Assembly: GCA_023898565.1 (NCBI GenBank)
Contig: CP060228.1
Span: 156,170-220,169 of the forward strand
DNA from: Candidatus Nomurabacteria bacterium
GTDB taxonomy: Bacteria; Patescibacteriota; Minisyncoccia; Phycocordibacterales; UBA918
Length of the DNA stretch: 64,000 nucleotides
Direction: 5' to 3'
Position 1 is the first letter of the stretch. Each line of letters starts with the position of its first letter. Shown here one piece after another: positions 8,962 through 34,937 of this stretch. The position numbers and the translations under genes were made by a program. The notes below the pieces were generated by a model. That model was not told the origin of the DNA and ran no database searches. It saw nothing but the letters and a program-made list of their open reading frames with translations.

Positions 8962-8968
8962 CAACCCA

Positions 8969-9733
8969 TTATAACGGCAAAGCCGTGATTGTAGTGGTTG
9001 CGATATACACGCCATCTAATACCCCTGCCCCACTTCCGACACCCACTCGAAAGCGCACGGAAGTTGTCGCTCCACTTGGGTGGTTCGCTCCTGCGCCCTC
9101 CGCGATTACTTGAGCAGTCGTTGACACACCAGCCCAACACGCAAAAGCAGTATCTAGCGAGCCGGTGTTACAAATACCGCCGCCGTCTTTGAAAAACTGA
9201 GTTATATCAATCCCTTCGGGAGTGTATCCAAAGTACGCCTCGCCTGCCCCAACAGTGAAGGAGTAGTCTGGCTCAGCTCCCTCATTGTAATCGGCAATAC
9301 TATAGGGAGGGTTTTGCATAGCAGGATCGTTTTGTCCCTTGATTGTAAGCTGATAACCAGACGGACTATCAGTCACAACGGTAAACGTTGAGGATCCATT
9401 TGCTTCACCTCCGGTAATACCCGGAATTGACTGATCCATAATTACATTACCCGTGGTAGTCAAACCAATAAAGACCTCTTGCATTTGCTGATAGCCCGCT
9501 TTTAACATGTATGACGCGCTGCTCGATTCTCCTGTTGCAACTTCGCCAACGGTACTTTCACTGATGTATGAAGTAGACGTAGACAAACCACCACCCACAT
9601 TAAGACTATCACTCTGCAATTGATAGCTTGCGCTCGAGCGCACCTGGGCCAAACTCACATTCAGCAACAACAAGACAATCATTGTTGTTGCCCCCGCTTC
9701 AAATATGCTACGCAAAAGAACAGTTTTTTTCAT
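8969..9733 (-). CDS. Small secreted Ser/Thr/Gly-rich protein, paralog A of the surface cassette
   Basis: The signal peptide is MKKTVLLRSIFEAGATTMIVLLLLNVSLAQV. It shares a conserved framework with the 10826..11530 product: T.F.V.T....GY..TI..., then C..G......A..CW...STTA, then a C-terminal Y.ATTT. There is no confident family assignment. Confidence 0.5.
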   Translation of the reverse strand: MKKTVLLRSIFEAGATTMIVLLLLNVSLAQVRSSASYQLQSDSLNVGGGLSTSTSYISESTVGEVATGESSSASYMLKAGYQQMQEVFIGLTTTGNVIMDQSIPGITGGEANGSSTFTVVTDSPSGYQLTIKGQNDPAMQNPPYSIADYNEGAEPDYSFTVGAGEAYFGYTPEGIDITQFFKDGGGICNTGSLDTAFACWAGVSTTAQVIAEGAGANHPSGATTSVRFRVGVGSGAGVLDGVYIATTTITALPL

Positions 9734-9735
9734 GC

Positions 9736-10806
9736 TTACGCATCTTTTCGTTTAAATTCAAACGTACGGAAAAATGCTCTCACACTGAAAATTATAATAA
9801 ATAAAGTCAAAAACACGCCCCCGACAATCTTCCAAGGAAGCACCCAGAAGCTAACTGCCACCTCATCAACAATATCATTGTACCCACGATTAACCCGAGC
9901 AGTAACCGTATAACGTCCGAGTAAAAACTCTCGATTCCACTCAATTTCACGCACACGTAGCGATTTTGGCAATACAAACCAAGGTTCCAGCTCAACAAAT
10001 CCGACCTCTTCTCCAAACATGTTAGTGATTGAAATCTCACCGTATGGATTAAGGTGAACGGTACCAGTGTTTTCATATAAAATACCCATGTTAACCGGTC
10101 CCGACTCATACCACATCTTGTCATCAATCAAATCAATTGATTTAGTCTGTCCAGATTCATCGACCTCTCCTTTTACGCGAATGAAGAACAACGAACCAAC
10201 ACGAGCAATAATCGGAGAACGTGGCACCACTCCCTCGCCCTCTGCAGGGGCGGTCTGCACCGTAGATACCAATACGCTACCATAATACCCGCCTGGGCTG
10301 GTATTTGGTGGAACACTAATAGTGATCGGGATTCGTGCTCGTTCACCCAAATTAAGTCTCACCGTGTCTTCTGGGAATGAGATAAAATCACGCACACTAT
10401 ATGGCCCCTTTTTATCGCCAAGCAGCGTAACCGCTGAGCTTCCGTCAGCCGAACCCTCAACGTCCTCAATTTCTAGCAAATATTCTTTATCGTTAGCCAC
10501 ACGGTTGGCAACCGTGATTTCACGCACGACCGTTTGGCCCGGACTAAGTTCGATTTCTGTTCGACCAGGCCCAACCACAAAATCACCCACTTCGACATTA
10601 CCAAAAATACGTTCCACTTTATACCAATCAGTCACAGCTACTGTTTGTGTTGTAGTTGACGCGATAGCCTCGGTAGAGCTGGCAGCAGCCAGTTCATCTG
10701 CTACATCTGTACCGCCAATAGACTGCGCAAACACCTCTCCAAAGCAGAGAGGTGTGAGCATGAGAGTAAAAATAAACGCAACGAGAATCTGTGTTCTGGT
10801 AGTCAT
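9736..10806 (-). CDS. Signal-peptide plus C-terminal TM-anchored surface protein (central gene of the cassette)
   Basis: The start was moved to MTTRTQILVAFIFTLMLTPLCFGEVFAQS (ATG whose complement is cat at 10804-10806). The beta-rich ectodomain contains IELSPGQTVVREITVAN, an Ig or chaperone-like pattern. The C-terminal TM helix WKIVGGVFLTLFIIIFSV is followed by RAFFRTFEFKRKDA. The overall architecture resembles DUF916/DUF3324-type anchored proteins, but this is weak. Confidence 0.5.
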   Translation of the reverse strand: MTTRTQILVAFIFTLMLTPLCFGEVFAQSIGGTDVADELAAASSTEAIASTTTQTVAVTDWYKVERIFGNVEVGDFVVGPGRTEIELSPGQTVVREITVANRVANDKEYLLEIEDVEGSADGSSAVTLLGDKKGPYSVRDFISFPEDTVRLNLGERARIPITISVPPNTSPGGYYGSVLVSTVQTAPAEGEGVVPRSPIIARVGSLFFIRVKGEVDESGQTKSIDLIDDKMWYESGPVNMGILYENTGTVHLNPYGEISITNMFGEEVGFVELEPWFVLPKSLRVREIEWNREFLLGRYTVTARVNRGYNDIVDEVAVSFWVLPWKIVGGVFLTLFIIIFSVRAFFRTFEFKRKDA

Positions 10807-10825
10807 AGAGTGACTACAGAATAGC

Positions 10826-11530
10826 TTACTTAGCAATAACCGACAAGGTCACTGTTGCAGTATACCATTCTGCCTGTGGCACCGGAGTGGCACCACTCGG
10901 TACAGTGAGATTAAAGGTTACTGTTGAGGTGGCACCGGTCACCGCAGCAGCTGACGTGTCCATGATACGGAACGCTGTGGTACTCGGCGCCATCCAACAG
11001 CTTACTGCGCCGTTTTGTGAACCACCCAAGTTACAAGCGGCGCCGTTATTCAAGAATGACTGATCAAGATCTGAAGTAGAAGAAGCGGTCACGGTGTACG
11101 CAAATTGAGCTGAAGTACTAGCTACATAGCCGTAGGTTGGCTGTCCAATGGTGTATCCCTGGTAATCATGAATCGCATCACTAAGTGAGGTGTCTCCCTG
11201 CATTGCTTCCGCTGATCCATTATCAAAGAAATCGATCGTTACGTAATAGCCTGCCGTGTTGTTGGTTTGTACCACAAACTGTGTGGTACCGGTTGCTTGA
11301 CCACCAGTCACACCGTTCAGTGTACCAGCCATGGTTACGTTTGCTGGCGGCACCAAGAATGAGGTTTCGTCAGTGATCTGGGCTCGAACAGTAATATCTA
11401 CACTTTCGTCGCCGTGACTGATTGCCGGTTCGATTAGGAAATACGTCGCAAAAAGCGTCGCTACCATAGTGACACTAGCCCAGAAAGCAAATATTCCAGA
11501 CTGAGCAAAATGTTTAAGATTGTAATTCAT
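10826..11530 (-). CDS. Small secreted protein, paralog B of the surface cassette
   Basis: It has an N-terminal hydrophobic segment and shares the C...CW and STTA motifs and the C-terminal Y.AT.T ending with paralog A (AVSCWMAPSTTAFR versus AFACWAGVSTTAQV). Confidence 0.5.
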   Translation of the reverse strand: MNYNLKHFAQSGIFAFWASVTMVATLFATYFLIEPAISHGDESVDITVRAQITDETSFLVPPANVTMAGTLNGVTGGQATGTTQFVVQTNNTAGYYVTIDFFDNGSAEAMQGDTSLSDAIHDYQGYTIGQPTYGYVASTSAQFAYTVTASSTSDLDQSFLNNGAACNLGGSQNGAVSCWMAPSTTAFRIMDTSAAAVTGATSTVTFNLTVPSGATPVPQAEWYTATVTLSVIAK

Positions 11531-11632: not shown

Positions 11633-14600
11633 TTAAATAGCCCCGCCGCCGCCGGCCCCGCCGCCGCCAACGTAGTGATACACCCGCACCTGAATCGCAT
11701 CAACCTGTACTGTATTGCTGGATGGATTACCCACAATGCGTACCGCAAAGTTAGCATTACTGAGCTGACCAGCACTCCAGCCATGGCCCCAGGTATCACT
11801 CGCACCGCCGAGTGTAATGACTTTATCAGCGGTCGTGAGTGTTGGTGTTGTCTTGGCACTAGTCCACGTGGTACCGCCGTCCCACGAGAGCTGAACACCA
11901 ATGTCGCCGGCGGCGGTAGTACCAGACACTTCGAGCTTCACTTCAATACCGGTCACCACACTACTGCCGCCAAGCGCATAGCCGTACGCTGAGTATGAAG
12001 AAGAGGCATTAGTGGTGTTGGTTGTCGCATAGGTGCCGTCGGTCTGGTCATAGGCATTGGCACCGGTAGTGAAGTCACCAGCATGAGCAGTTGGCCACTT
12101 GTAATTTGGATCATCCCCAATCTGTTCCCCTGCCTCTTCGGTGCCGCCAGTCTCGACCGAACGACCTTCTGGTGCCGAATCGCCGACAGCTGCACTACTG
12201 CCGCCTCCGCCGCTTTGATTGTTGCGATTGTGCTGCACTGAGTCGACAGTACCGTACACATCCTGTACTCCCACTTCATCCGCCACTGCCAGATCATCCG
12301 CATACAGCGCAAGCATCATAGCAGCGCCATTTTCCGGCGCATTCCAGTCTGCAATTACAAGGTAGTTCGTGGTAGTAGTAGAGAGGAAGTCAGTTGTGAA
12401 AACAATCGTGCCAGTCTTGTCATCAAGTGTGAAAACACCTGTACCACCAACCTGCTCATCGCCTCCGTCGTAGAGAGCGTCATTATTGTGGTCACGGAAT
12501 AAGCGAATATTTGAGAAGTCACTCGCATCAATCTTCTTCGCACCGCTGACGGTAATAGTGAGGTCGGTCACCGTAGCAGAACCACTCTCCGGGATAAGCT
12601 TGAAAGCAAAGAGTGCTTCATCAGTTTTGTTTTGGAAGTTAAAGGCATTATTCACTTGCGTGTCGTCATGATTTGTAATCGTGGTGGAACCAACAACGAG
12701 AGATGACGTGCTGAACGTCCAGTTGACATTGTTTCCGTAATCGACCGAATCAAGAGCAGCAACAGTCGACGAAGCGCCGCTGTCTTCTACATTTACATAT
12801 CGAACATTCAGCTGACTACCTGGAATATCGAGGTACCACTGCGTACCCTGCTCACTTGAGCGAAGCCACACAGGAGAAGAAGCACCGCCTTGCCAGTCTA
12901 CGCTCTCAAATGTACTCGTAGCGCCTGCCACAAACTGAGCAGATGTACTTGCAGTCATGGTAAACGTACCGGTTGTTTCTACCGGCATACCGAAAATGAC
13001 TGATTGGGTAGTTGTACCATCCTGCGACGTGTTTGAAATGGTGAGATCATAGAATGCACTGTCACCAGACAATGTACCCGTGGCGGTTTGTTGCGTAACA
13101 CCCGAGAAAATCACCTCTGAAGTAGAAGCTGCTAAGATGCCGTTGTTGGTATAATCTCCACCCACAGAAAGTGTCGCGTCAGTCAGGTTTAAGTAACCGT
13201 CGTTGGTCAGAGAATCTGAGACAGTTACTGTAGACGTACTAATTACAGTCGCATAACTGGTACTTGCGTTAGTCAGAGAATCAAGGCTTAATGCATCGTA
13301 GATTGTTAGCGATGGAGTCACGCTTCGCATCACATTATCATCACTCCAACCAACCGCCACAAAATAACTATCGCCATACACAACCGATTCCCAGCTGCCA
13401 AGACCCTCGCGAACAGTCCACGTAATACCATCTGGTGAGGTTATGACGCGATCTGCGCCTGCTCCAACTGCTACAAAGAGACCGTTGCCGTAAGCCACCG
13501 AGTTCCATGAGCCTGTTGTTGAACGCACCGTCCAATTGACACCGTCGGGTGAGGTCATGACGCGGTCGCCAGAGTACCCCACCGCTACAAAGAGACCGTT
13601 GCCGTAGGTGACTGATAGCCAGCTGTCGTTATTTCCGGCGGCTGAACGCACCGTCCAATTGACACCGTCGGGTGAGGTCATGACGCGGTCGCCGGAGCTG
13701 CCTACCGCCACGAAGAGACCGTTACCGTAGGTGACTGATTGCCAGCTGTCGTTATCCCCGGCGGCGGAGCGGACGGTCCAAGTGATGCCGTCGGGTGAGG
13801 TCATGACGACGTCGTCTGCGCCATTACTAGCCCAACCCACCGCCACGAAGAGGCCGTTGCCGTAGGTAACATCATACCAGTCATCATTATCCCCCGCAGC
13901 ACTGCGCGCGGTCCATGCCCCACCTCCACTACTCGGCGCCACCACCACATCTCCGAGTGCGTTAGCTCCCACCAAGTCACCCATCACGAGCGGATCTGGT
14001 CCAGTGAAGTAGGTTGTGCCACCGTTGTTATCAAAGGTGCCATTCTGGCTAAAGTCACCACCGATAGTCAGAAGACTTGGCGCGACCAGAGAGCCAGAGA
14101 TGGTGAGGTTTGAGGTAGACGCATTGTTTGAGGCAGTGTATGAACCCTCAATAGAGATGTCGCCTAAAGCTGAAGAGCCGGTGAGGGTGCCAGAGAGCGT
14201 TTTGCTGGTGCCGGTGAATTTTGCTAAACCACCATTATTATCAAACACTCCGCCGTCGTTATGGAATGAACCAGAGAAGGTAGATGACGCAGCATTTACG
14301 AAAGTGCTACTACTCCAAATATATAACTCCTTACCGTCTTCAACGGTAAGAGTGTCACCCGTAGTAGAGGCGGTGTATCCAATATCAGCATGTTGGCTTG
14401 CATCATACGTATCCAAATCAGCCAACGTAGTACTTGTTGCTCCCTCCTGACGTACAATTATCCGATTATTGTAGATATCAACGCCAGTTAGATTCTCAGT
14501 TGACGAGGCAAATTTTGACACAACAGTTCCTTCGTCAAAACCAGAATTCCAAATCCAGATAACAAATGGCGTGTCGACACCAACACCATTACTATTATCA

Positions 14601-14845
14601 ACTGTGAAACTAAAATTCCCGCTATTGTCTGATGAAGTCGCCTGCACGCTGACAGTCGAAGTACCAATTGCTAAAAACAAAGATTCTGCAAATGAAGCAG
14701 CTGTCGCACCTTCATCATCATAAATTGTACCTGAAATCGTAAATGTACCTGCCTCAGCCAGCATCGGCGCAAACACAATCACAGCACAACCAGCGACAAC
14801 CGCGGCTTTAACGTACTCAATGATGTTTTTAATGGCTACTGTCAT
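11633..14845 (-). CDS. Large secreted surface protein (1070 aa) with an Asp-box/BNR-like beta-propeller built of tandem repeats
   Basis: It has an N-terminal signal-like segment. At least six tandem units of about 41 aa have the form W.SVTYGNGLFVAVG....VMTSPDG(I/V)(T/N)WTVRSAAG.ND. S-x-D-G-x-T-W is an Asp-box-like motif. There are Gly/Asn/Thr-rich beta regions and a Gly-rich C-terminus ending GGGGAGGGGAI. Confidence 0.65.
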   Translation of the reverse strand: MTVAIKNIIEYVKAAVVAGCAVIVFAPMLAEAGTFTISGTIYDDEGATAASFAESLFLAIGTSTVSVQATSSDNSGNFSFTVDNSNGVGVDTPFVIWIWNSGFDEGTVVSKFASSTENLTGVDIYNNRIIVRQEGATSTTLADLDTYDASQHADIGYTASTTGDTLTVEDGKELYIWSSSTFVNAASSTFSGSFHNDGGVFDNNGGLAKFTGTSKTLSGTLTGSSALGDISIEGSYTASNNASTSNLTISGSLVAPSLLTIGGDFSQNGTFDNNGGTTYFTGPDPLVMGDLVGANALGDVVVAPSSGGGAWTARSAAGDNDDWYDVTYGNGLFVAVGWASNGADDVVMTSPDGITWTVRSAAGDNDSWQSVTYGNGLFVAVGSSGDRVMTSPDGVNWTVRSAAGNNDSWLSVTYGNGLFVAVGYSGDRVMTSPDGVNWTVRSTTGSWNSVAYGNGLFVAVGAGADRVITSPDGITWTVREGLGSWESVVYGDSYFVAVGWSDDNVMRSVTPSLTIYDALSLDSLTNASTSYATVISTSTVTVSDSLTNDGYLNLTDATLSVGGDYTNNGILAASTSEVIFSGVTQQTATGTLSGDSAFYDLTISNTSQDGTTTQSVIFGMPVETTGTFTMTASTSAQFVAGATSTFESVDWQGGASSPVWLRSSEQGTQWYLDIPGSQLNVRYVNVEDSGASSTVAALDSVDYGNNVNWTFSTSSLVVGSTTITNHDDTQVNNAFNFQNKTDEALFAFKLIPESGSATVTDLTITVSGAKKIDASDFSNIRLFRDHNNDALYDGGDEQVGGTGVFTLDDKTGTIVFTTDFLSTTTTNYLVIADWNAPENGAAMMLALYADDLAVADEVGVQDVYGTVDSVQHNRNNQSGGGGSSAAVGDSAPEGRSVETGGTEEAGEQIGDDPNYKWPTAHAGDFTTGANAYDQTDGTYATTNTTNASSSYSAYGYALGGSSVVTGIEVKLEVSGTTAAGDIGVQLSWDGGTTWTSAKTTPTLTTADKVITLGGASDTWGHGWSAGQLSNANFAVRIVGNPSSNTVQVDAIQVRVYHYVGGGGAGGGGAI
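13431..13925. repeat. Near-identical 123-bp tandem repeats (about 4 copies plus diverged flanks) inside the 1070-aa gene
   Basis: Units begin at 13554, 13677 and 13800, each with gtcatgacgcggtcgcc...ccgtcgggtgag, and match at nearly every base. A shorter 114-bp unit begins at 13440. They encode the propeller blades. Confidence 0.7.
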
Positions 14846-14859: not shown

Positions 14860-17800
14860 CTACACAGCATCTTCGCTATGTGGAGACTCTGCTTCTACTT
14901 CCTCAGTTGCCGAAACGGGGTCGGCTTCCGTTGTATCTGCAGCCGGCGGCTCCGGTACTTCCAGCGACTCATCTTCCGTTATGACTATATTTTCTTCATT
15001 CTCTGCCACGACTTCGTCCCCAAGCCCTTCACCTGCTTCTGTCACAGGCACACCTTGCTCAGCTTCTGTTTCAGATGAAGAAGTAGCCGTCTCCACTGGC
15101 GCCGGCGGCTCTTCCGTGGTGGTGGCTACCTCGTCGGTGGAAGTGGCGGAGTTCGGAGGGAGCACCTCAGTTGGTGGCTCCGATACAGCACCTTCTTCAG
15201 AGGATTCGCTACCCTCTCCTGTCACTGGTGAGTTATTTGAACTCACTGGCGCGCTAGAATTTGTGTTCAGCATAGTACGCAAGTCATCAGCGGTGACACA
15301 CACTCCGTCGACACAGAGCTCACTAGTCTCAACCTTGTCTGCCTTAAGTGTAAAGACTGAAAGAACGCCGTCTACGAAGTTGTTGGCAAGTGTCACTAGG
15401 CGATCGAAGATTGTTTCGTCTTCATTATCACCAACCGTCTCAATCGATGAGGTGCTAAAGAGTGTGCCGAGCGACGCAAGCTGTGAATCATCAAACCAGC
15501 GGTAGCTTCGATCAACAAACATTACCACGCGACCGACCTTCACTGCCGTACCGTCCGCCAATCGCTTTGTTTCACTTCGCTCATCACGCAGCGCGTCCAT
15601 TTGCTCAGCCACACTCTCTGCTTCAGCGATGTGGTTTGCTTCATCAATCTGACCTTGTGTAGTGGTGGCCGAGAGCGGCACACACGGTTCATCGCCTACC
15701 GCATTACCACCACCGTAATAACAACCATCATCAAGTCGCGGATCAAGATTGGTATAAATTGGCTCATACACTGGCTCCACCATGTCGTCACCAAATTGAT
15801 TGAGATATGTTTCACTGTACTTGCGTGCATCATCAAAGTCCTCTAGAGCAATACCAATAGTTGCTCCCGTGCCAGTTGCCTTCATGGCTACGCCCGGCAG
15901 AGATGAAAGCATAAGTGAATCACCACGCTTAATTGGACCGTTTTCGGTTGAAAGCTTCACTGGCACACGTCCAGATAGCGCCAGTGGGTACCCACGCTCT
16001 CCGGCACGAAGTGAGGAATCGTCAAAACCAAGAAGCAGACCCGGCTTGGTAGAAACCACACCAAGAACCGGCATGTCACTTCCCTGTTCTGCACGATCAA
16101 TTGAAAGCTCACCATCAAGCACCACCACTTCGCCTGGCTCGAGATTGGTGCTGCTGAAATACATTTCTGCGAGGTCAGAATTTCCAGTCAGACTTTCTAC
16201 TGAAGTGATGCGCCCTGACGTAGAAGCAGTACACGAACCATCATTATCGACACAAATACCACCAAAACCAATCTGAAGTCCTGCAAGATGGTTGGTGGTA
16301 CCATCACCGATGGTAGTCGTGCCGTAGGCTGATACTGTAAAGACCGATGCGCCGCCGTTTTGGAAGTCGAGGTACTTAGATGTGGACGAAGAGAATGACC
16401 CCGTGCCATTACCAAAATTCATCTCAAGGCCGGTACCGGCGAAGGTTGAGCTTGACTGGAACAGTGAAAGCAAGCTGGCAGTAGTAAGCGTATCAGTATA
16501 CGCACGAATTGCATTACCTTGAGCAGTACCTTCGGTCTCAAAGAAACCAGCTGCTGGCTCGTAGGTATCGCCTGCTTCACCAGTCGTGACTGCTCGCACA
16601 CCAAAAGTGCGGGCGAAGGCTGAAATCGCCGTATTTTCACCGTACGTATTCGCACCGCGATTGGCTTGTACTTCAAGCGTACGCACCGTATTACCATATG
16701 TAGTATCGTCCCGCAGGCGAATCATACTCCCCACAATGGTGGTAGTGGCAGTGTTATTAGCATCGAGGAAAAATCGATTACCATACTGCACTGCTGAAAG
16801 AACACTGTTTTGTGTTTCGAGGTACTGATCAAGTCCAACCACTCCTGCTCCAGAAAACGCAGTATTTTGAATTGCCAATTTTGCCGCTGGTGAAGTGGTG
16901 CCAATACCAACCCTACCTGCGTTTGTAATATGAAAGAGCGCATCACCGGTTGATGACGCAACCGTAAGGAGCGGCTTGGTAGCATCGGTTGCGTCACCAA
17001 GCACGCTGAAGCGTGCCCAAGGCGAGGTAGTACCAATACCCACAGCAAGATCGGTCACACTACCCGCTCCATCAGATTCACCATACAGAGTAAGTAGTGA
17101 GTTACCATCAATAGCAGCAGTATAACTTTCGACAGTACCAACCGAAGCGCCAGCAGTGACGCCCATGTCAGTCCACGTCACCACTCCAGCATCATCCTCA
17201 AACTTCATGTTGCCCAACGCCAGGTTCTCAATAGTGGTCTGGTTGGTTGCTGCGTTATACGAAATTGCACCATTATTAACATCAAAGCCACCAGAGATAA
17301 GTGTATTTGCATACGAACCTGAGGTATCAATCCGGAAGATTGGCGACACTGAACTTGAAGTAGCGATAGTCCACGCAAAACTATCACCATTCACTACCGT
17401 ACTGGTGGCAGCAGTGAAGTAATGAAGAAGGAGTGAAGATGCACTTGAAGACGCGAAGTTAATCACGTTTGAGTCGAGCCAGGTGTTGCCGGCGACAGAA
17501 AGTTTTGCCGCTGGACTTGACGTACCCAGGCCGAGATTGCCACTGTTGGTCATGGTTAAGACACGACCGGAAGCATTGTCGAGTGTGAGAATATCTCCTG
17601 CACCTAGCTGTGTGATAGCAGCGGACGTTGCAGTAGTTGAACCAATGATGCTGAAGAGATTGTACCCGCGAGCGCTATCTGTCGTGATCGTAGTCCTATC
17701 CCATTCGTTGTAGCGAGTACTCGCACTCGCATCCGCGATGTAGTTTGTGCTGTTTGGATTTTCGAAATGATTTGAAGCAAGAGTCGTATCAACAGCACCG

Positions 17801-20800
17801 CTGGCAATTTCTATCAACGCATACGTCGACGTCGAATAAATACTATTTGCAACGATTGCGATGTTTGTGGTTTCTGCAATATCGATTGCAGGATGTGCAC
17901 CAGACAAACCTATTGAGTACAATTGGTTATTAGAAATGACATTGTTGGCAGCATTGCCGCCGTACCTACTATATGCAGCAATTGCGGCATGTCCAACATT
18001 CTCAATTTTGTTGTTAGAAATAGTGTTATCTGAAGCACCCCAACCTAGAAAGATACCGTTTGCACCAACAAAGCTGCCGAAGATGTTTCTGATAACATTA
18101 TTGCTAACAATATTATGTGAAGGAGCATAGCTATACGGAGCGTCAAAATAAATACCTGCACTAAGATTTGATAGCTGGTTACTCGAAATAACGTTGTACA
18201 TAGACTCCTCAGTTAGAGTAACACCCTTGCCAGTATTGGAGATAACGTTATTAGCAACATTAGAGTAAGTTATATTCTCGAAGTAAAGAGCACTGTCAGC
18301 ACTCGCCCACATTGTATTGTTCTGAATTGACAACCGACTCGAATTATATGCAGCTATGCCGTCCCAATTTTCACTAATGTTGTTACTAGCAACCTCCACA
18401 TCAGACGAACCGTCAATATCAATGCCTGCGATATTGTTATTCTTGATTCTTATGCGACTGGAAAGAAAAACGTTTATTCCATATATATGTTTATTATTTA
18501 TCACAAGAACATCAGTCGAATTGTTAACATCAGCACCATAGTTATCAACATTAACTACCTCAAGCTCAGATATGGTTGAGCTACTTGAATCACTGAGGTA
18601 CACCGCAGTTTGTGAACTAGATTGGTTTGCCTGATTACCATCAATTTTGAGACTAGAAATTGCCACTCGAGGAGTGCTGCTTGCTCTCAAAATAACCACA
18701 TCACCCAAATCGTTATTGTCCTTCAATTTAATCACAGTAGAAACTCCTTGCCCGATAAGCTGAGTGTTGGTCGCCATATTTATTGCGATACCTGGTGCGG
18801 TGGATGTAGAAACTTCAAAGTTACCAGCCAAGAGATACACCGTACCACCACCGCCATTGGCATACACATAATCAATCGCCTGCTGAATCTCAACTTCGTC
18901 ACTCGTACCATCAGCCACGTAGTCAGCATATGCCTTTTCTGCTGCTGGAGAGTCTGAGGCTGCCACCACCACGGAAGTGTCGCCTGCGGTATTGAGACAG
19001 TTTCCATCGGCAGTCTGGAAACATCCACCAGAGAGAGCGATACCATTGGTGAAAGTTGAGGTAGCTGTCGTAGATGCCACAATCGCTGTATTAAACGTAC
19101 TCGTCGCACTCGTAAATGCTCCAATCACATTCGCACCCACGGTGCTGCCAGTACCGAGCTTGAAAGTGTCGTCTGAATCATCAAGACCAAAGTAATAATC
19201 GAGTGCGTTACCATCAAACAAAGTAAAGGTGTCTTCAGCTAAGCCAGAGCCAAGCGTGTAGCCGCTCCCTGTTCCACCAGTAGAGGCGAGTGAAAGGATA
19301 CCAGAACTATCAACGCTCAGCTCTGCATAATTTGAACCATCATATGAAAGCCGGAGGCTGTTGCCTGCTCCGAAAATATCGAGCATCGCGCCAGGTGAAG
19401 CAGTACCCAAACCAAGATTGGTACCGTCGTACACAAAGGTGGAATCAAACGCGAGCGCTGAACCTGAGACATACGGAATCGCATTACTGGTATAAGACCC
19501 CGGCGTATCAGACAACCCTAAGAAAGTGCCATTACCAAGGCCGAGCGATGAGGTGGCAATGTCTGCCCAGGCGGTACCATTCCAGTAAAAAAGGTCACCG
19601 TAATTTTTGGTCATGGCCGCCACGTCAGACAATTCTTCAATAGAGTTGTCAGTCAAATTATCAGCCGTACGCGCTGTCTGTTGTGTTTCCCAAAAATTTG
19701 CTGAAGTTGTTGAGAAGCTATTAGCTATGTAATAACTACCCTCTTGACCATCGAATGTGCCCACCCAATCACCGCTCGTGTCGGACAAAAAGCCTAGACT
19801 AGAAGTTGCGACCCACTCCACACCCGCACCCGTAGTCTGAAGCACCTGACCAGTAGTACCTCGAGTAGCATTATTGTCATACACACCTCCCGTAAGAGCT
19901 ATATCGCCAGCTACTGATAGCTTGGCGTACGGTGAGGTGGTACCGATGCCGACGTTGCCAGTTGGAGTAATAACCGCTGCTGTACCAGAACCAAAAACAG
20001 AACTGTTGACATTAAATTCAATACCTTTTCCAGAACCTCCATGTATAGCAGTATTTGCAGTACTACCGTTATACCCAAACGCAGCACGATCATTAGTGAT
20101 ACCTATATAGTTTACATCCGTAATAGCACCGTAACGGTTGACATAGATATGCGAGCTAGTACTCGTTGTTTGTATACTACCTGACACGTCAAGCCTAGCA
20201 GTTGGTGTTGATGTCCCAATACCAACGTTGCCGCCCGAGGTGATGGTAAGCCGTGAAGTGTTATTGGTAATGAGTCGTAAATCATGATTTGAGAAGGTGC
20301 CTAGGAAGCCTTGGAAGTCCTCACTGCGTACATCAACTTTTACCTCATTGGTCGTATCAGTGAAGCGAGCGCCAGCATTTGTCGCGCCTGCAACATTTAA
20401 TAAGCGATCCATAGTAGTCGTGCCAATTCCTACTCTACCAGCAGCCGTCACTGTAAATAAATCATTCGAATTATAGTCCAGCAACGACAAAACATCGCCT
20501 GGTGCAATACTTCTAGTTTGCTGGATTGTTAATACTGGAGTGCCGTCAAAAGTATTAGCAATCATTTGATCAGCCTCATCGGAACGTAAGAAAGACGACG
20601 AGGCAACACCACCAAGCTTCATCGATTCGAAAGCGGCGGGCACTGCACCAAGTGGCTTGCGAGGTGACATCTCGCCGTCCCAGGCAGGCGCTCCAGTGCC
20701 GCCAATCTCCACACCCAAATAGAGCGTCTGACCGAAGTCGACACTAGTAAGCGGTGAAGTGGAGCCAAGCATTACGCTAAAAAGACCATTAGTGACTTGC

Positions 20801-21054
20801 ACTTGATCAGCGCCAGTGAGTGATTCGGTCCATACTGCCGACGTAGTAGCCTGACTGGTGCTCTGCAACAACCAAAAACGCATGTTGTACGAACCATCAG
20901 GCACTGCCACTCCTGAACTGTCGGTAAGCTTACCTTGGTAATTAATTTGCTGATTTGGCTCAGCAGATACAAAACTTACCGCAACAAACAAAGCAAACAT
21001 GGCAAGACTCATTGCCCTGGTCACTTTCTTGATTGTCGAATAAGCTAAAAACAT
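14860..21054 (-). CDS. Giant secreted surface protein (2064 aa): repeated GIGTTSP.AKL motif region, parallel beta-helix (pectin-lyase fold) repeats, and an acidic disordered C-terminal tail
   Basis: It has a signal peptide (MSLAMFALFVAVSFVSAEP). A motif is repeated at least seven times: GRVGIGTTTMDRLLNV, GNVGIGTSTPTARLDV, GNVGIGTTSPYAKLSV, LGLGTASPGAMLDI, LGLGTSSPAAKLSV, GIGTTSPWARFSV and GRVGIGTTSPAAKLAI. A long run of NNxI(S/A)xN beta-helix rungs follows (NNNIAGIDIDGSSDVEVASNNISEN...NNVISNTGKGV...SNNKIENVGH...). The C-terminal roughly 200 aa are rich in Pro, Glu, Thr and Ser. Confidence 0.65.
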   Translation of the reverse strand: MFLAYSTIKKVTRAMSLAMFALFVAVSFVSAEPNQQINYQGKLTDSSGVAVPDGSYNMRFWLLQSTSQATTSAVWTESLTGADQVQVTNGLFSVMLGSTSPLTSVDFGQTLYLGVEIGGTGAPAWDGEMSPRKPLGAVPAAFESMKLGGVASSSFLRSDEADQMIANTFDGTPVLTIQQTRSIAPGDVLSLLDYNSNDLFTVTAAGRVGIGTTTMDRLLNVAGATNAGARFTDTTNEVKVDVRSEDFQGFLGTFSNHDLRLITNNTSRLTITSGGNVGIGTSTPTARLDVSGSIQTTSTSSHIYVNRYGAITDVNYIGITNDRAAFGYNGSTANTAIHGGSGKGIEFNVNSSVFGSGTAAVITPTGNVGIGTTSPYAKLSVAGDIALTGGVYDNNATRGTTGQVLQTTGAGVEWVATSSLGFLSDTSGDWVGTFDGQEGSYYIANSFSTTSANFWETQQTARTADNLTDNSIEELSDVAAMTKNYGDLFYWNGTAWADIATSSLGLGNGTFLGLSDTPGSYTSNAIPYVSGSALAFDSTFVYDGTNLGLGTASPGAMLDIFGAGNSLRLSYDGSNYAELSVDSSGILSLASTGGTGSGYTLGSGLAEDTFTLFDGNALDYYFGLDDSDDTFKLGTGSTVGANVIGAFTSATSTFNTAIVASTTATSTFTNGIALSGGCFQTADGNCLNTAGDTSVVVAASDSPAAEKAYADYVADGTSDEVEIQQAIDYVYANGGGGTVYLLAGNFEVSTSTAPGIAINMATNTQLIGQGVSTVIKLKDNNDLGDVVILRASSTPRVAISSLKIDGNQANQSSSQTAVYLSDSSSSTISELEVVNVDNYGADVNNSTDVLVINNKHIYGINVFLSSRIRIKNNNIAGIDIDGSSDVEVASNNISENWDGIAAYNSSRLSIQNNTMWASADSALYFENITYSNVANNVISNTGKGVTLTEESMYNVISSNQLSNLSAGIYFDAPYSYAPSHNIVSNNVIRNIFGSFVGANGIFLGWGASDNTISNNKIENVGHAAIAAYSRYGGNAANNVISNNQLYSIGLSGAHPAIDIAETTNIAIVANSIYSTSTYALIEIASGAVDTTLASNHFENPNSTNYIADASASTRYNEWDRTTITTDSARGYNLFSIIGSTTATSAAITQLGAGDILTLDNASGRVLTMTNSGNLGLGTSSPAAKLSVAGNTWLDSNVINFASSSASSLLLHYFTAATSTVVNGDSFAWTIATSSSVSPIFRIDTSGSYANTLISGGFDVNNGAISYNAATNQTTIENLALGNMKFEDDAGVVTWTDMGVTAGASVGTVESYTAAIDGNSLLTLYGESDGAGSVTDLAVGIGTTSPWARFSVLGDATDATKPLLTVASSTGDALFHITNAGRVGIGTTSPAAKLAIQNTAFSGAGVVGLDQYLETQNSVLSAVQYGNRFFLDANNTATTTIVGSMIRLRDDTTYGNTVRTLEVQANRGANTYGENTAISAFARTFGVRAVTTGEAGDTYEPAAGFFETEGTAQGNAIRAYTDTLTTASLLSLFQSSSTFAGTGLEMNFGNGTGSFSSSTSKYLDFQNGGASVFTVSAYGTTTIGDGTTNHLAGLQIGFGGICVDNDGSCTASTSGRITSVESLTGNSDLAEMYFSSTNLEPGEVVVLDGELSIDRAEQGSDMPVLGVVSTKPGLLLGFDDSSLRAGERGYPLALSGRVPVKLSTENGPIKRGDSLMLSSLPGVAMKATGTGATIGIALEDFDDARKYSETYLNQFGDDMVEPVYEPIYTNLDPRLDDGCYYGGGNAVGDEPCVPLSATTTQGQIDEANHIAEAESVAEQMDALRDERSETKRLADGTAVKVGRVVMFVDRSYRWFDDSQLASLGTLFSTSSIETVGDNEDETIFDRLVTLANNFVDGVLSVFTLKADKVETSELCVDGVCVTADDLRTMLNTNSSAPVSSNNSPVTGEGSESSEEGAVSEPPTEVLPPNSATSTDEVATTTEEPPAPVETATSSSETEAEQGVPVTEAGEGLGDEVVAENEENIVITEDESLEVPEPPAADTTEADPVSATEEVEAESPHSEDAV

Positions 21055-21056: not shown

Positions 21057-21779
21057 CTACATATTTGAAGACGATACAGGCACCCTTACAAAAGGCACTT
21101 CATTACCGACTTGATTACCGCTTGCGTCCACCGGAACAATCACTTGCGAACCATCAGAAAGACTTCGAACCTCTACTGTGTCGGAAAATAATCGTTCTGG
21201 TCGTTCTGTATTGAGCCCTGCCGGAAAAAGAATGATTCCATGATCAATCTCGCCGAGCGATGCTTGCGTAAATTGAGCCGTATCTTTCTGAGCCTGAGTC
21301 GCCGGCCGCTTTGCTTCTGAAACAACCGGACTTACTTGAGTCAACTGGGCCGATTGCTGTACGGTCACCTTGTCGGCAAGTGACACGTGAGCATTCGAGT
21401 GTTTTAGTTGGTACGCCCCTTGCCCCGCAAGCAAACCAACCCCGAGCACAAATGCAGCGGCAAAGGCAGCCCGTGCGTTAAGGGAATGTGCCTTTTTAAT
21501 CTGTAGGGTGCGACGTTCTTCAACAGCCTCACGCAACTGACGCTCACGCTTCCTCTCTTGACTTAAAATCTTTTTTCGTACCTCTTGCTCAAGCGCAGCG
21601 TTTTCTGCGTACGACTTGAGTGAAGCGAGATCGACAAACCACTGTCGACCGATGTAAGAAGCGACAACTTTACCTTCACGAGCGAGGCGCGTGATGTAAT
21701 CACGCGAATACGTTGTCGACCGAGCTGCTTCCTTGATTGGATGCAGTACTTTTCCATCAATCTCGAGTGAGCTATTCAT
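21057..21779 (-). CDS. Membrane-tethered HTH protein (N-terminal excisionase/MerR-like HTH_17 domain, coiled coil, single TM, extracytoplasmic C-domain)
   Basis: The N-terminus IKEAARSTTYSRDYITRLAREGKVVASYIGRQWFVDLASLKSY fits the HTH_17 pattern (EaA..lgvs..tvyRl...G.lpa.kiGrrwrv....L). It is followed by a charged helix, a TM segment AAFAAAFVLGVGLLAGQGAY, and a tail of about 115 aa. It lies 2 nt upstream of the giant protein gene. Confidence 0.5.
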   Translation of the reverse strand: MNSSLEIDGKVLHPIKEAARSTTYSRDYITRLAREGKVVASYIGRQWFVDLASLKSYAENAALEQEVRKKILSQERKRERQLREAVEERRTLQIKKAHSLNARAAFAAAFVLGVGLLAGQGAYQLKHSNAHVSLADKVTVQQSAQLTQVSPVVSEAKRPATQAQKDTAQFTQASLGEIDHGIILFPAGLNTERPERLFSDTVEVRSLSDGSQVIVPVDASGNQVGNEVPFVRVPVSSSNM

Positions 21780-21862: not shown

Positions 21863-22975
21863 TTATTGACGCAAAAAATCGAGCAGGCTCGCCATCTGAA
21901 AAACAAGTCGAGAGTCAGAATTATCGTTCGTAACCGTAACCTGGAGGCTACTTAAAAATAGCAACACAACAACCACCAGTGCCATAACCGTGGCAATAAC
22001 CGGCGAAAAAAGCACCAAGCTGCTTGTGCGATAACTGGCTTCATCCAAAGTAACTGATTTTGGCGAAAATGAAGAGACCATCTTTTTATCAGGAACAGTG
22101 CCTACAACGTGAGGAATTCCTTTTTCAAGACTTACCTTGGTCAAAAAGTCTCCCGTCGGTAGATTTGCTGGAGTTTCAGCCATTTGCGCCTCTTGAACAA
22201 GATTTGCACTGTTCCTTATTCTTTTAGTTTTTCCAACCTTGGCTAAAGCTGTGTCAGTGCCATGAACATTAACATCCAAAGACTCGGTACTTACAGGTTT
22301 ATCAGATATATCTTTATTTTTAAAGATATTTCGTCTATCTGATGCGACATCTGGTATTGTCTCCGCTGATAAATCAGGCGCAGCAAGAGTCGCTTCTGCA
22401 TCAGGATAGTCTAGAACAGGTATTTTACCTGATAAAGCTACCTCTGGCATCTCTGTTGGAGCAAATGATGACATATGGTGTGCACGGCTGCTCGATATAC
22501 CTAGCTTTTTAGACTCAGCAGGTTGGATGTGAATGTACTTGGGTGGTCTTGTCTCTCGCTTAGTAAGCGTTGGGATAAGATTGCCGTGATCCGGTTCGTA
22601 TGTGACACGCAAGCTGCGCCTGGCACCATGCTGGCGTAGTTGCTGATCGGCTAGAATTTTAAGGGTGGCCGACTTCAAAGGAGTACCGGCGACGCTGCGC
22701 TGTAGAGATGGTTGAACCTGAGTGTGAGTGATATTAGCTGACTCTTCCGCTACAAATTCTGTCTGCTGCGTAGCCTCTCTTTTTTGGTGCCGACCCGCTC
22801 TGTACTCATCCATCGAAAGCGGATTAACATACCAGGAACGACCAACCAACCTAGCATCAATTTTCTTGTTACGGCAGAGTTGACCAACATAATCTGCAGT
22901 ATACCGAAACCGCTTGGCAATAACTGAAGCCCGCACATACTCAATACCATCAAGAACCACCTTGTCCATGTCCAT
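21863..22975 (-). CDS. Membrane-tethered HTH protein, paralog (HTH_17-like N-domain, long Ser/Thr/Pro linker, C-terminal TM)
   Basis: The N-terminus LDGIEYVRASVIAKRFRYTADYVGQLCRNKKIDARLVGRSWYVNPLSMDEY is paralogous to the 21057..21779 N-domain (GR.W[FY]V. motif). The TM segment VLFSPVIATVMALVVVVLLFL lies near the C-terminus. It is the first gene of the surface operon. Confidence 0.5.
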   Translation of the reverse strand: MDMDKVVLDGIEYVRASVIAKRFRYTADYVGQLCRNKKIDARLVGRSWYVNPLSMDEYRAGRHQKREATQQTEFVAEESANITHTQVQPSLQRSVAGTPLKSATLKILADQQLRQHGARRSLRVTYEPDHGNLIPTLTKRETRPPKYIHIQPAESKKLGISSSRAHHMSSFAPTEMPEVALSGKIPVLDYPDAEATLAAPDLSAETIPDVASDRRNIFKNKDISDKPVSTESLDVNVHGTDTALAKVGKTKRIRNSANLVQEAQMAETPANLPTGDFLTKVSLEKGIPHVVGTVPDKKMVSSFSPKSVTLDEASYRTSSLVLFSPVIATVMALVVVVLLFLSSLQVTVTNDNSDSRLVFQMASLLDFLRQ

Positions 22976-22984: not shown

Positions 22985-23020
22985 GAGAAAAAAATAATAC
23001 ACCTCTACTTAAGGTGTATT
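22985..23020 (-). terminator. Rho-independent terminator downstream of gatB
   Basis: The stem aatacacct / aggtgtatt (22996-23004 / 23012-23020) has loop ctactta. On the minus-strand RNA it is followed by auuuuuuucuc. Confidence 0.5.
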
Positions 23021-23045
23021 ACTTTCCAGCCTAGACGAGAAAAGC

Positions 23046-34161: not shown

Positions 34162-34166
34162 AATTC

Positions 34167-34934: not shown

Positions 34935-34937
34935 AGC

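What the first reader, a model, noticed from the sequence alone, without database searches (positions are those of the whole stretch)
14860..21054. 2064-aa protein with a phage-tail-fibre-like motif array, a beta-helix and an acidic disordered C-terminal tail
The motif [GL]-[IL]-G-T-[TS]-[ST]-P-x-A-[KR]-L-x-[VI] recurs at least seven times in the N-terminal 1200 aa. Dozens of NN(x)I(x)xN rungs follow, typical of pectin-lyase or NosD-type right-handed beta-helices as found in tailspikes and adhesins. The last roughly 200 residues are an acidic, Pro-rich, low-complexity tail. A tailspike-like adhesin in a cellular chromosome with no phage genes nearby is notable. It may bind or degrade a host polysaccharide.
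Basis: partly seen in the sequence, partly recalled or inferred. Interest (0 to 1): 0.6.

Follow-up and report, generated by a model that had tools for sequence, protein, structure and literature searches.

The report
Phage-fibre-like surface fibre of a CPR bacterium
This gene encodes a 2064-residue exported, modular fibre built from phage tail-fibre parts, and it belongs to a very large, undescribed family in ultra-small Patescibacteria (CPR), where it is a good candidate for how these cells grip other microbes or their sugar coats.

Summary
It is a cellular mosaic fibre, not a stray tailspike.

- **N-terminus:** a signal peptide is followed by a domain that matches the N-terminal domain of Bdellovibrio MAT fibres.
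- **Stalk:** the GIGTTSPxAKL motif (7 copies, 0.04 expected by chance) fits the published capping-loop consensus of MAT and S74 fibres.
- **Beta-helix:** residues 690-1120 fold with high confidence as a right-handed beta-helix homologous to AlgE mannuronan epimerase A-modules. The AlgE catalytic set is incomplete.

More than 1000 sequence clusters, all from Patescibacteria, share the N- and C-terminal modules and differ in the middle. The gene sits at a conserved housekeeping locus behind two HTH-transmembrane genes.

The most likely function is a trimeric surface fibre for polysaccharide or host recognition. Trimer formation, cleavage and ligand are inferred, not shown.

The parts
20962..21054 (-). 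Signal peptide, aa 1-31 (MFLAYSTIKKVTRAMSLAMFALFVAVSFVSA|EP)
   Evidence: This is the only hydrophobic segment in the protein (aa 11-33). It has a basic n-region and a small-residue VSA motif. The cleavage site is inferred, because no signal-peptide predictor was available.
20560..20961 (-). Conserved N-terminal domain, aa 32-165, related to the Bdellovibrio MAT N-terminal domain. Presumed to be the cell-proximal anchor.
   Evidence: NCBIfam Bdello_MAT_N matches at E 6.6e-6 on the full protein. All 22 family N-domains match, with best E 1.4e-11, but all fall below the 60-bit cut-off and cover only profile positions 3-78 of 162. The domain is conserved in about 100 of 120 top homologues.
18988..20559 (-). 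Stalk 1, aa 166-689, with capping-loop motifs at aa 209, 278, 369 and 548 and a Cys pair (C677/C686)
   Evidence: Motif positions are. PDB phmmer hits Bd2133 (8ond, E 1e-4) and 8ojn over aa 254-424. tblastn hits phage tail-fibre genes over aa 180-440 at about 30% identity. A near-identical strain has aa ~280-472 replaced.
17695..18987 (-). Right-handed parallel beta-helix domain, aa 690-1120, of the AlgE A-module / NosD / CASH type
   Evidence: Pfam NosD and Beta_helix match. The AF2 model has pLDDT 87.5. Foldseek hits AlgE4 at E 2.7e-12, plus tailspikes and lyases. The family profile hits AlgE4 at E 6.3e-37. AlgE4 Y149, D152 and D178 align to Y839, D842 and D881; H154 has no counterpart.
16921..17694 (-). 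Stalk 2, aa 1121-1378, with capping loops at aa 1175 and 1339
   Evidence: Motif positions are. Its conservation among relatives is intermediate.
16177..16920 (-). Conserved pre-cleavage module, aa 1379-1626. It has a capping loop at 1383, a short-strand/Gly-turn pattern and an invariant Cys pair (C1601/C1608). It is presumed to be an intertwined trimeric beta-solenoid and the mature C-terminal tip.
   Evidence: It is highly conserved in 73 homologues. It recurs in tandem and together with S74 chaperones in P0085 and P0086. The monomer AF2 model has pLDDT below 50 here, so the fold is unresolved.
15505..16176 (-). Intramolecular-chaperone domain, aa 1627-1850, of the phi29 gp12 D4 / Peptidase_G2 type (beta-tulip). 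It begins at the predicted self-cleavage site S1626|D1627-L-A-E1630.
15253..15504 (-). Conserved C-terminal element, aa 1851-1934 (LANNFVDGVL ... ELCVDGVCVTADDLR, helical, with Cys pair C1914/C1919)
   Evidence: It is conserved across the family. It also follows S74 domains in P0085 and P0086. Its function is unknown.
14863..15252 (-). Acidic, Pro/Ser/Thr-rich low-complexity tail, aa 1935-2064
   Evidence: It has 29 Glu, 6 Asp and 15 Pro, with net charge -35. Few homologues align over this stretch, and their tails differ in sequence while staying low in complexity.
21057..21779 (-). Upstream partner gene, 240 aa: an HTH_17-like N-terminus, a charged helix, one TM segment and an extracytoplasmic C-terminus. 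Its stop codon lies 2 nt before the fibre start codon.
   Evidence: Pfam HTH_17 matches at E 3.6e-4. The TM segment is at aa 100-122. An orthologue lies directly upstream of the fibre gene in 48 of 80 loci from other species. HTH-TM-fibre fusions exist (P0106, P0113, P0207).
21863..22975 (-). Second upstream partner gene, 370 aa: an HTH-like N-terminus and a C-terminal TM segment
   Evidence: It is found in tandem with the 240-aa gene in the same 48 of 80 loci. The TM segment is at aa 316-351. The HTH_17 match is only faint (E 0.08).

Best explanation
The gene encodes a Sec-exported, modular cell-surface fibre of a Kaiserbacteria-like Patescibacterium (CPR). It is built on the same principles as phage tail fibres and Bdellovibrio MAT fibres.

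Proposed mechanism:
1. The signal peptide takes the chain out of the cell. This is inferred.
2. The C-terminal phi29-gp12-type beta-tulip domain (aa 1627-1850) folds and trimerises first. It sets the register for the beta-solenoid module before it (aa 1379-1626) and for the capping-loop stalks. The fold homology is shown; the chaperone role is inferred by analogy.
3. The chain then cleaves itself at S1626|D1627. This releases the chaperone, the conserved C-terminal element and the acidic tail. The motif is shown; the cleavage is inferred.
4. The MAT-like N-terminal domain holds the mature fibre at the cell surface, probably by docking on the two co-transcribed HTH-transmembrane proteins. This is inferred from conserved adjacency and from fusion proteins.
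5. The AlgE-like right-handed beta-helix in mid-fibre, which other family members replace with propellers, LamG or LVIVD modules, is the variable ligand-facing part. Most likely it binds a polysaccharide of a host or partner cell envelope or matrix, and possibly also modifies it.
For: **Architecture.**
- One N-terminal hydrophobic segment and no other TM segment.
- Eight Cys residues, all in four close pairs, three of them invariant or nearly invariant across homologues. This fits an extracytoplasmic protein.

**N-terminal domain.** All 22 family members tested match NCBIfam Bdello_MAT_N, with best E 1.4e-11.

**Stalk.**
- 7 capping-loop motifs against 0.04 expected, fitting the published MAT/S74 consensus.
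- The best PDB sequence hits are the MAT fibres 8ond and 8ojn.
- Phage tail-fibre genes match aa 180-440.

**Beta-helix.** Searches agree on the fold and on homology to AlgE A-modules.

**C-terminal chaperone.**
- Pfam Peptidase_G2 matches at E 6.5e-5, and 8 of 20 relatives match.
- The remaining fold hits are beta-tulip capsid decoration proteins, the fold known for gp12 D4 (bioRxiv 10.1101/216911).
- The domain starts exactly at the invariant S-D-L-A-E motif.

**Family and context.**
- 1606 homologues were found, all named ones from Patescibacteria.
- 1029 clusters at 50% identity match the C-module at E<=1e-30.
- At least 511 genomic loci encode the N-domain. Nearly all record titles name Patescibacteria lineages; three say only 'bacterium' and two name other taxa.
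- The N- and C-modules are conserved while the middle varies.
- The locus is the same in Nomurabacteria and Paceibacterota: SecA-Obg-GatB-HTH-HTH-fibre, continuing to GAPDH in the Nomurabacteria genome.
- The HTH-TM pair lies upstream in 48 of 80 loci.
- HTH-TM-fibre fusions lack the N-domain.
Against: - No experiment or multimer model shows trimerisation. The monomer AF2 model of aa 1370-1629 has low confidence. That fits an obligate trimer but proves nothing.
- The Peptidase_G2 and Bdello_MAT_N matches are below their curated cut-offs. The MAT_N match covers only the first half of that profile.
- The C-terminal region extends about 200 aa beyond the tulip domain and is itself strongly conserved. 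That is unusual for a discarded pro-piece, so it may have a role of its own or may stay attached.
- The mature tip, if cleavage occurs, is conserved, and the variable module sits mid-fibre. This is the reverse of the tip-variable logic of MAT fibres and most phage fibres.
- The ligand is unknown. Paceibacteria hosts are mostly unknown.
- The gene lies at a conserved core locus, which could instead point to a housekeeping envelope role.
Confidence: 0.6

Rival explanations
1. The protein is mainly an extracellular polysaccharide-modifying enzyme, an AlgE-like uronate epimerase or lyase. The fibre parts only space or anchor the catalytic beta-helix so that it can remodel a matrix or a host capsule.
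For: - The beta-helix family profile hits AlgE4 and AlgE6 A-modules at E 6e-37 and 3e-36, and alginate epimerase/lyases at about 3e-32.
- Foldseek gives the same top hits.
- In this protein, AlgE4 Y149, D152 and D178 align to Y839, D842 and D881.
- phi29 gp12 itself combines a beta-helix enzyme with this type of chaperone.
Against: - His154 of the AlgE catalytic set has no counterpart, and the D178 match requires an inserted rung.
- The catalytic positions are not conserved in the 17 related modules: Tyr in 4 of 18 and Asp in 2 of 18 sequences.
- Other family members replace the beta-helix with non-enzymatic propeller, LamG or LVIVD modules.
- Non-catalytic adhesins such as PfbA also match.
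Confidence: 0.15
2. The protein is a structural envelope component of the cell, an S-layer-like or spacing fibre with no specific partner recognition. Its mid-region varies through antigenic or phage-escape pressure.
For: - The gene sits at a conserved locus among housekeeping genes in many species.
- The N- and C-modules are strongly conserved.
- Two genomes in the scan carry two loci each, far fewer than the 21 MAT fibres of Bdellovibrio.
Against: - The swappable middle modules (beta-helix, LamG, propellers, LVIVD, YadA-head-like) are typical ligand-binding modules.
- The closest characterised relatives, MAT and phage fibres, are recognition devices.
- A near-identical strain differs only by one cassette in the stalk.
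Confidence: 0.15
3. The gene is a phage or prophage tail fibre or tailspike gene that happens to lie in the chromosome.
For: - It has phage-type capping loops and a phage-type C-terminal chaperone.
- There are local tblastn hits to tail-fibre and baseplate genes.
Against: - The fibre protein has no PHROGs match, and the Pfam scan of 20 neighbouring ORFs shows housekeeping, surface or unassigned proteins and nothing phage-like.
- The locus is the same across different Patescibacteria species.
- The protein has a signal peptide and a cellular MAT-like N-terminal domain.
- No phage record covers more than 11% of the protein.
- GC content matches the flanks.
Confidence: 0.03

Closest known systems
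Bdellovibrio bacteriovorus MAT (mosaic adhesive trimer) fibres, e.g. Bd2133, Bd2439 and Bd3182 (Caulton et al. 2024, PMC10769870)
   Same: - Both have a signal peptide followed by a related N-terminal domain.
- Both have long stalks carrying the same capping-loop motif.
- Both are mosaic and use swappable adhesive modules.
- Both are cellular rather than viral, and both occur in bacteria that live on other bacteria.
- MAT fibres are the best PDB sequence hits.
   Different: - The N-domain match is below the family cut-off and covers only half of the profile.
- The C-terminal chaperone is of the G2 (phi29 gp12) type, not S74.
- The variable module sits mid-fibre between conserved ends, rather than at the C-terminal tip.
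- This protein is about twice as long as a typical MAT fibre.
- It has partner HTH-TM genes.
- The host lineage is Patescibacteria, generally regarded as lacking an outer membrane (my own knowledge, not tested here).
Bacillus phage phi29 gp12 pre-neck appendage (tailspike), MEROPS/Pfam Peptidase_G2 (PDB 3gq7, 3gqh, 3suc)
   Same: - Both have a right-handed beta-helix in the same polypeptide as a C-terminal beta-tulip autochaperone.
- The chaperone begins with D-x-A-E-Y/M-F, aligned to residue 2 of the gp12 C-terminal fragment.
- The gp12 chaperone is cleaved off after folding.
   Different: - In gp12 the chaperone follows the beta-helix directly. Here about 500 aa of stalk and a conserved solenoid module lie between them.
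- This protein continues about 200 aa beyond the tulip domain.
- The Pfam score is just below the gathering threshold.
- It is secreted by a cell rather than assembled in the cytoplasm. ATP, which I recall is involved in gp12 maturation, would not be available outside the cell.
Azotobacter vinelandii mannuronan C-5 epimerase A-modules (AlgE4, AlgE6) and alginate epimerase/lyases
   Same: - The beta-helix domains are clearly homologous (profile E 6e-37, Foldseek E 3e-12).
- The N-terminal cap motif DG..D...IQ.AID......GGG.V.L..G is shared.
- Tyr and two Asp residues of the catalytic set can be aligned.
   Different: - The catalytic His is absent.
- There are no Ca-binding R-modules.
- The domain is embedded in a fibre.
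- The catalytic positions are not conserved among paralogous modules.
S74-type endosialidase and T5 pb1 tail fibres with an intramolecular chaperone
   Same: - They share the same logic: an intertwined trimeric beta-helix with capping loops, folded with the help of a self-cleaving C-terminal chaperone.
- Some members of this CPR family do use S74 (PF13884; P0085, P0086).
   Different: This protein has no S74 domain and no SDxxxK motif.

Membership tests
MAT (mosaic adhesive trimer) superfamily | A signal peptide followed directly by the conserved beta-rich N-terminal domain of about 130 aa | tested here: inconclusive
   NCBIfam NF053851 Bdello_MAT_N matches this protein at E 6.6e-6 (full protein) and 3e-8 (N-terminal fragment). 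All 22 family N-domains match, with best E 1.4e-11. All scores (26-34 bits for this protein) are below the 60-bit cut-off and cover only profile positions 3-78 of 162.
MAT (mosaic adhesive trimer) superfamily | The capping-loop motif V-G-G/N-pi-x-x-P-x-x-x-L recurring along the fibre | tested here: met
   6 copies fit [VLFI]G[IL]G[TS]xxPxxx[LF] and 7 fit the looser form, against 0.04 expected. The consensus is taken from PMC10769870. phmmer hits 8ond and 8ojn through these repeats.
MAT (mosaic adhesive trimer) superfamily | An intertwined homotrimeric fibre | not testable with these tools
   Only monomer AlphaFold2 was available. The stalk and pre-cleavage parts gave pLDDT below 50.
MAT (mosaic adhesive trimer) superfamily | A variable adhesive domain or an S74 chaperone at the C-terminal tip | tested here: not met
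   The C-terminal about 570 aa are the most conserved part of the family, and the variable module is internal. The chaperone is G2-type, not S74.
Peptidase_G2 / phi29 gp12 autochaperone (PF11962) | A sequence match to the family model above its gathering score | tested here: inconclusive
   The score is 22.9 bits (E 6.5e-5) against a cut-off of 25, on aa 1610-1676. 8 of 20 relatives match at E<=0.01, with best E 2.2e-6.
Peptidase_G2 / phi29 gp12 autochaperone (PF11962) | The beta-tulip fold of the gp12 C-terminal domain | tested here: met
Peptidase_G2 / phi29 gp12 autochaperone (PF11962) | A cleavage-site motif Ser|Asp-x-x-Glu at the start of the domain. The gp12 residue numbers S691|D692 and E695 are from my memory of Xiang et al. 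2009. | tested here: met
   S1626-D1627-L-A-E1630 is present and invariant in the 20-sequence alignment. It aligns to the start of the crystallised gp12 fragment. D-L-A-E is invariant in jumbo-phage homologues.
Peptidase_G2 / phi29 gp12 autochaperone (PF11962) | Actual autoproteolysis and chaperone-dependent trimer folding | not testable with these tools
   This needs expression of the fragment and of point mutants.
Pectin-lyase-like right-handed beta-helix superfamily (NosD / Beta_helix / CASH) | A right-handed parallel beta-helix fold | tested here: met
   Pfam NosD scores 57 bits (cut-off 23.6) and Beta_helix 50.8 bits (cut-off 25.9). The AF2 model has pLDDT 87.5. 194 PDB matches reach E<=1e-3; the 50 best listed are all beta-helix enzymes, tailspikes or adhesins.
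AlgE-type mannuronan C-5 epimerase | The catalytic residues Tyr149, Asp152, His154 and Asp178 (YG(F/I)DPH(D/E) motif). The residue roles are from my memory of Rozeboom et al. 2008. The numbering was checked against the printed alignment. | tested here: not met
   Y839, D842 and D881 can be aligned, but His154 has no counterpart (Y-G-A-D-V-N-N) and D881 requires an extra rung. The positions are variable in related modules.

The most novel reading that the evidence does not exclude
Paceibacteria-type CPR bacteria carry, at a conserved core locus, a domesticated phage-fibre assembly system. It would work as a plug-and-play host-recognition organelle.
- The constant N-terminal dock and the constant C-terminal self-cleaving chaperone would allow almost any binding module to be displayed mid-fibre.
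- The repeated capping-loop motif would serve as the recombination joint for swapping cassettes between strains.
- The two co-encoded HTH-transmembrane proteins would both anchor the fibre and relay contact across the membrane to gene expression.

If this is right, the family would be the main determinant of host range in a major part of the CPR.
Probability: 0.15. Interest if true: 0.85.

Novelty: new variant of a known kind. Interest (0 to 1): 0.55.

Why it matters
How ultra-small CPR/Patescibacteria cells find and hold on to their hosts is largely unknown outside the Saccharibacteria, where type IV pili are implicated. My literature searches found no description of this fibre family.

- **A concrete candidate.** The gene points to a very widespread candidate recognition device in the Paceibacteria branch, with more than 1000 sequence clusters. 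Its domain boundaries, predicted maturation site and swappable cargo can all be tested in vitro without growing the organisms.
- **A wider pattern.** The phage-fibre and MAT building principle would now extend from predators (Bdellovibrio) to episymbiont-type bacteria.
- **A cellular G2 chaperone.** The phi29-type (G2) autochaperone, known mainly from phage tail proteins, is used here by a cellular secreted protein.
- **A possible host predictor.** The type of middle module might be usable as a marker to predict hosts or substrates from metagenomes.

Tried and rejected
- **PHROGs scan of the whole protein.** No match, so it gives no support for a phage gene.
- **phmmer of the C-terminal 341 aa against PDB.** Only chance-level GGDEF hits, E 0.3-1.3; rejected. 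The relation to gp12 appeared only with a profile and by fold.
- **Monomer AF2 of the C-module.** Residues 1370-1629 and 1850-1945 were not modelled with confidence. The fold of the pre-cleavage module and of the ELCVDGVCV element stays unknown.
- **Word-indexed homologue search with the beta-helix segment.** It returned only 8 proteins and missed the protein itself. This is probably because Asn-rich words saturated the candidate list (my inference). Related modules were recovered instead by local BLAST among proteins already fetched.
- **S74 chaperone.** No Pfam hit and no SDxxxK motif in this protein.
- **C-terminal membrane anchor.** No second hydrophobic segment was found. An LPXTG motif was not searched for systematically.
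- **Paralogues in the window.** None.
- **Promoter and terminator scan.** Counts were at or below chance. Only the hairpin at 22989-23027 stands out.
- **Literature searches for a described CPR fibre family.** Nothing relevant.
- **Xiang et al. 2009.** The paper is not held, so the gp12 residue numbers and the ATP dependence are quoted from memory.

Full report
**1. Observation**

The ORF at 14860..21054 on the minus strand is real, starts with ATG and encodes 2064 aa.

- **Motif.** A looser form occurs 7 times, at aa 209, 278, 369, 548, 1175, 1339 and 1383. Shuffled sequence gives 0.04 loose matches. Only five of the seven copies lie in the first 1200 residues.
- **Beta-helix.** Pfam NosD (E 2.5e-15) and Beta_helix (E 1.9e-13) pass their gathering scores. 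About ten separate Asn-rich rung motifs are found, not dozens.
- **Tail.** The last 130 residues have net charge -35 and 15 Pro.
- **Surroundings.** The neighbours are housekeeping genes: split transketolase, Rpe, GAPDH, GatB, Obg, SecA and MurB. All lie on the minus strand. No tRNA, Rfam family or phage protein family was found.

**2. What the protein is made of**

*Signal peptide.* A single N-terminal hydrophobic segment (aa 11-33) is followed by VSA|EP. There is no other hydrophobic segment. All eight cysteines fall in four close pairs, and three pairs are invariant or nearly invariant across homologues. This fits an exported protein.

*N-terminal domain, aa 32-165.*
- It matches NCBIfam Bdello_MAT_N, the N-terminal domain of the Bdellovibrio 'mosaic adhesive trimer' fibres.
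- All 22 diverse family members tested match, with best E 1.4e-11.
- All scores are below the curated cut-off and cover only the first half of the model.

*Stalks.*
- The best PDB sequence hits of the whole protein are the MAT fibres Bd2133 (8ond, E 1e-4) and 8ojn.
- Tail-fibre genes of Pelagibacter and Synechococcus phages match aa 180-440 at about 30% identity.

*Beta-helix, aa 690-1120.*
- With an alignment of 18 related modules, AlphaFold2 gives pLDDT 87.5 and pTM 0.86.
- Foldseek against PDB returns AlgE4 and AlgE6 mannuronan epimerase A-modules (E 2.7e-12). It also returns alginate epimerase/lyase, HK620 and Sf6 tailspikes, inulin lyases, the PfbA adhesin and the RbmB lyase.
- A profile of the modules hits AlgE4 at E 6.3e-37 by sequence alone.
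- In a profile-guided alignment, AlgE4 Y149, D152 and D178 align with Y839, D842 and D881. His154 has no counterpart, and the D178 match needs an extra rung.
- These positions are not conserved in related modules.
- Binding is therefore better supported than AlgE-type catalysis. Catalysis of some other kind is not excluded.

*Pre-cleavage module, aa 1379-1626.* This is a very conserved Gly/Asn-turn, short-strand module. The monomer model has low confidence here. It recurs in tandem, and in front of S74 chaperones, in relatives. I read it as an intertwined trimeric solenoid, but this is inference.

*Chaperone, aa 1627-1850.*
- Pfam Peptidase_G2 matches at E 6.5e-5, just under the cut-off. 8 of 20 relatives match.
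- The confident part of the model starts exactly at aa 1629.
- The gp12 D4 autochaperone is known to consist of beta-tulip domains like those decoration proteins (bioRxiv 10.1101/216911). It is cleaved off after folding (PMC3357383).
- The profile alignment puts LAEMYFS on FAEYFES at residue 2 of the crystallised fragment. That places D1627 at the position where the fragment starts.
- S-D-L-A-E is invariant in the 20-sequence alignment. D-L-A-E is invariant in the C-terminal domains of jumbo-phage tail proteins, whose matches begin at aa 1623-1626.
- I recall that gp12 cleaves at S691|D692 with E695 involved, and that ATP is required (Xiang et al. 2009). The paper could not be read.

*C-terminal end.* A conserved helical and Cys-pair element (aa 1851-1934) is followed by the acidic tail (aa 1935-2064).

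**3. Family and context**

- The protein has 1606 detectable homologues. All that carry names come from Patescibacteria (Kaiserbacteria, Nomurabacteria, Paceibacterota). The closest is a Kaiserbacteria MAG protein at 91% identity.
- Coverage mapping shows a conserved N-module (aa 1-162/223) and a conserved C-module (aa ~1376-1940) around a variable middle. In other members the middle holds LVIVD, lactonase-propeller, LamG, EPTP, YadA-head-like or one to three beta-helix modules.
- A profile of the C-module finds 1029 clusters at 50% identity with E<=1e-30.
- The N-domain is encoded at 511 or more loci in species-representative genomes. Nearly all record titles name Patescibacteria lineages; three say only 'bacterium' and two name other taxa. 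Two genomes in the listed set carry two loci each.
- There is no paralogue in this window.
- The locus is syntenic in Nomurabacteria and Paceibacterota: SecA, Obg and GatB, two HTH-type genes (only the second has an HTH_17 hit on record there), then the fibre. In the Nomurabacteria genome four small surface-protein genes, GAPDH, RpiB, Rpe and transketolase follow.
- Orthologues of both upstream HTH-TM genes lie directly upstream, on the same strand, in 48 of 80 loci.
- Three relatives (P0106, P0113, P0207) carry an N-terminal HTH_17-like domain similar to those of the two upstream genes. For P0106 and P0113 a TM-like segment follows, the fibre modules come after it, and the MAT-like N-domain is missing. 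This suggests that the N-domain and the HTH-TM proteins work together, most simply as dock and membrane anchor.

**4. Mechanism**

This section is inferred except where marked.
1. The protein is exported through the Sec pathway.
2. The C-terminal tulip domain trimerises and sets the register of the solenoid and stalks. The fold homology is shown.
3. The chain self-cleaves at S1626|D1627. The motif is shown. The chaperone, the conserved C-terminal element and the acidic tail are lost.
4. The mature fibre of about 1600 aa per chain is held at the membrane through the N-domain and the HTH-TM partners.
5. The mid-fibre beta-helix presents a lateral polysaccharide-binding groove, as in tailspikes.

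Points that do not fit neatly:
- The variable part is internal and the tip is conserved.
- The 'pro-piece' is long and conserved.
- ATP would not be available outside the cell.

**5. Rivals**

- An AlgE-like enzyme on a stalk (0.15).
- A non-specific envelope or spacing fibre (0.15).
- A prophage gene (0.03).

**6. Comparison and novelty**

The protein works like a MAT or phage fibre with an intramolecular chaperone. It fails one MAT criterion, the variable or S74 C-terminal tip, and is sub-threshold on another, the N-terminal domain. I therefore do not file it as a MAT member. It is a new variant of that kind: Patescibacteria-wide, with a G2-type chaperone, a mid-fibre cargo module and HTH-TM partner genes. 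The library searches found no paper describing it.

**7. Verdict**

The finding is real and more interesting in context than as first described, because it is a lineage-wide candidate host-recognition fibre. All functional steps beyond fold and homology remain untested. Interest is 0.55.

Noticed in passing
window 21057-21779 and 21863-22975 (minus strand): Two tandem genes encode proteins with an HTH_17-like N-terminus and one transmembrane segment. The stop codon of the second lies 2 nt before the fibre start codon. Orthologues of both lie directly upstream of the fibre gene in 48 of 80 loci from other Patescibacteria. Relatives P0106, P0113 and P0207 carry a similar HTH_17-like N-terminus on proteins that contain fibre modules; P0106 and P0113 lack the MAT-like N-domain. 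They could be a membrane anchor, a contact sensor or both.
   Followed up: partly
window ~19640-20220 (aa ~280-472 of the fibre): A near-identical Kaiserbacteria MAG protein (P0002) is 100% identical over aa 1-250 and over most of aa 500-1450 (96-100% per 50-aa bin). Between about aa 280 and 472 it has a replaced and shortened cassette. The left breakpoint lies exactly in the capping-loop motif GNVGIGT. This is either strain-level cassette exchange at the repeated motif or a metagenome assembly artefact at a repeat.
   Followed up: partly
window 11633-14845 (minus strand), aa 289-508 of the 1070-aa product: The next gene downstream encodes a secreted 1070-aa protein with no Pfam match. Its repeated 'GNGLFVAVG...MTSPDG..WT.RS' region looks propeller-like by eye. 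That region is 55-69% identical to middle modules embedded in other members of the fibre family, such as P0049, P0021, P0066 and P0026. The same cargo module is therefore used in the fibre in some genomes and in a separate neighbouring protein here. This gene is absent from the syntenic Nomurabacteria locus.
   Followed up: partly
window 7333-11530 (minus strand): 10826-11530, 9736-10836, 8969-9733, 7333-9015: Four genes for small exported or membrane-anchored proteins lie between the fibre region and GAPDH. Genes of matching size and order, one also with a faint fn3 hit, occupy the same position in a Nomurabacteria genome. Two (234 and 254 aa) have similar C-termini. One has a weak WxLIP_PGBD hit plus a C-terminal TM segment. 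One has fn3 plus a C-terminal TM segment. This is reminiscent of the WxL/Csc cell-surface complexes of Firmicutes, but the Pfam support is below threshold.
   Followed up: partly
window ~32000-42000: A low-GC island (0.34-0.39, against 0.45-0.52 elsewhere) carries a Wzx-like flippase (Polysacc_synt), a methyltransferase, a GT2 glycosyltransferase and further ORFs that I did not scan. It lies next to a Wzy_C/TPR protein at 30207-32429. It is probably a surface-polysaccharide gene cluster and possibly horizontally acquired.
   Followed up: no
window 22989-23027 (minus strand): A 17-pair hairpin followed by a T-run lies between the end of gatB and the first HTH-TM gene. It may mark the start of the HTH-HTH-fibre transcription unit. 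Overall terminator-like counts in the region are at chance level.
   Followed up: no
relatives P0126, P0082, P0128 (protein ids; not in the window): Some family members carry two or three tandem copies of the AlgE-like beta-helix module in one fibre. Members P0085 and P0086 carry the pre-cleavage module twice, together with an S74 chaperone instead of the G2 type. Modules are shuffled at every level in this family.
   Followed up: partly
L083 (Pseudomonas phage vB_Pa-PAC2, PA5oct-like) 1469-2905; L084 (Sinorhizobium phage Phosso) 1025-2905: Jumbo-phage tail proteins, annotated 'baseplate wedge subunit and tail pin' or hypothetical, end in a domain 34-35% identical to aa ~1600-1785 of the fibre. 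It includes the D-L-A-E, GVVST.PG and ALSGRVPV motifs. These phage proteins probably also carry unannotated G2-type C-terminal autochaperones.
   Followed up: partly
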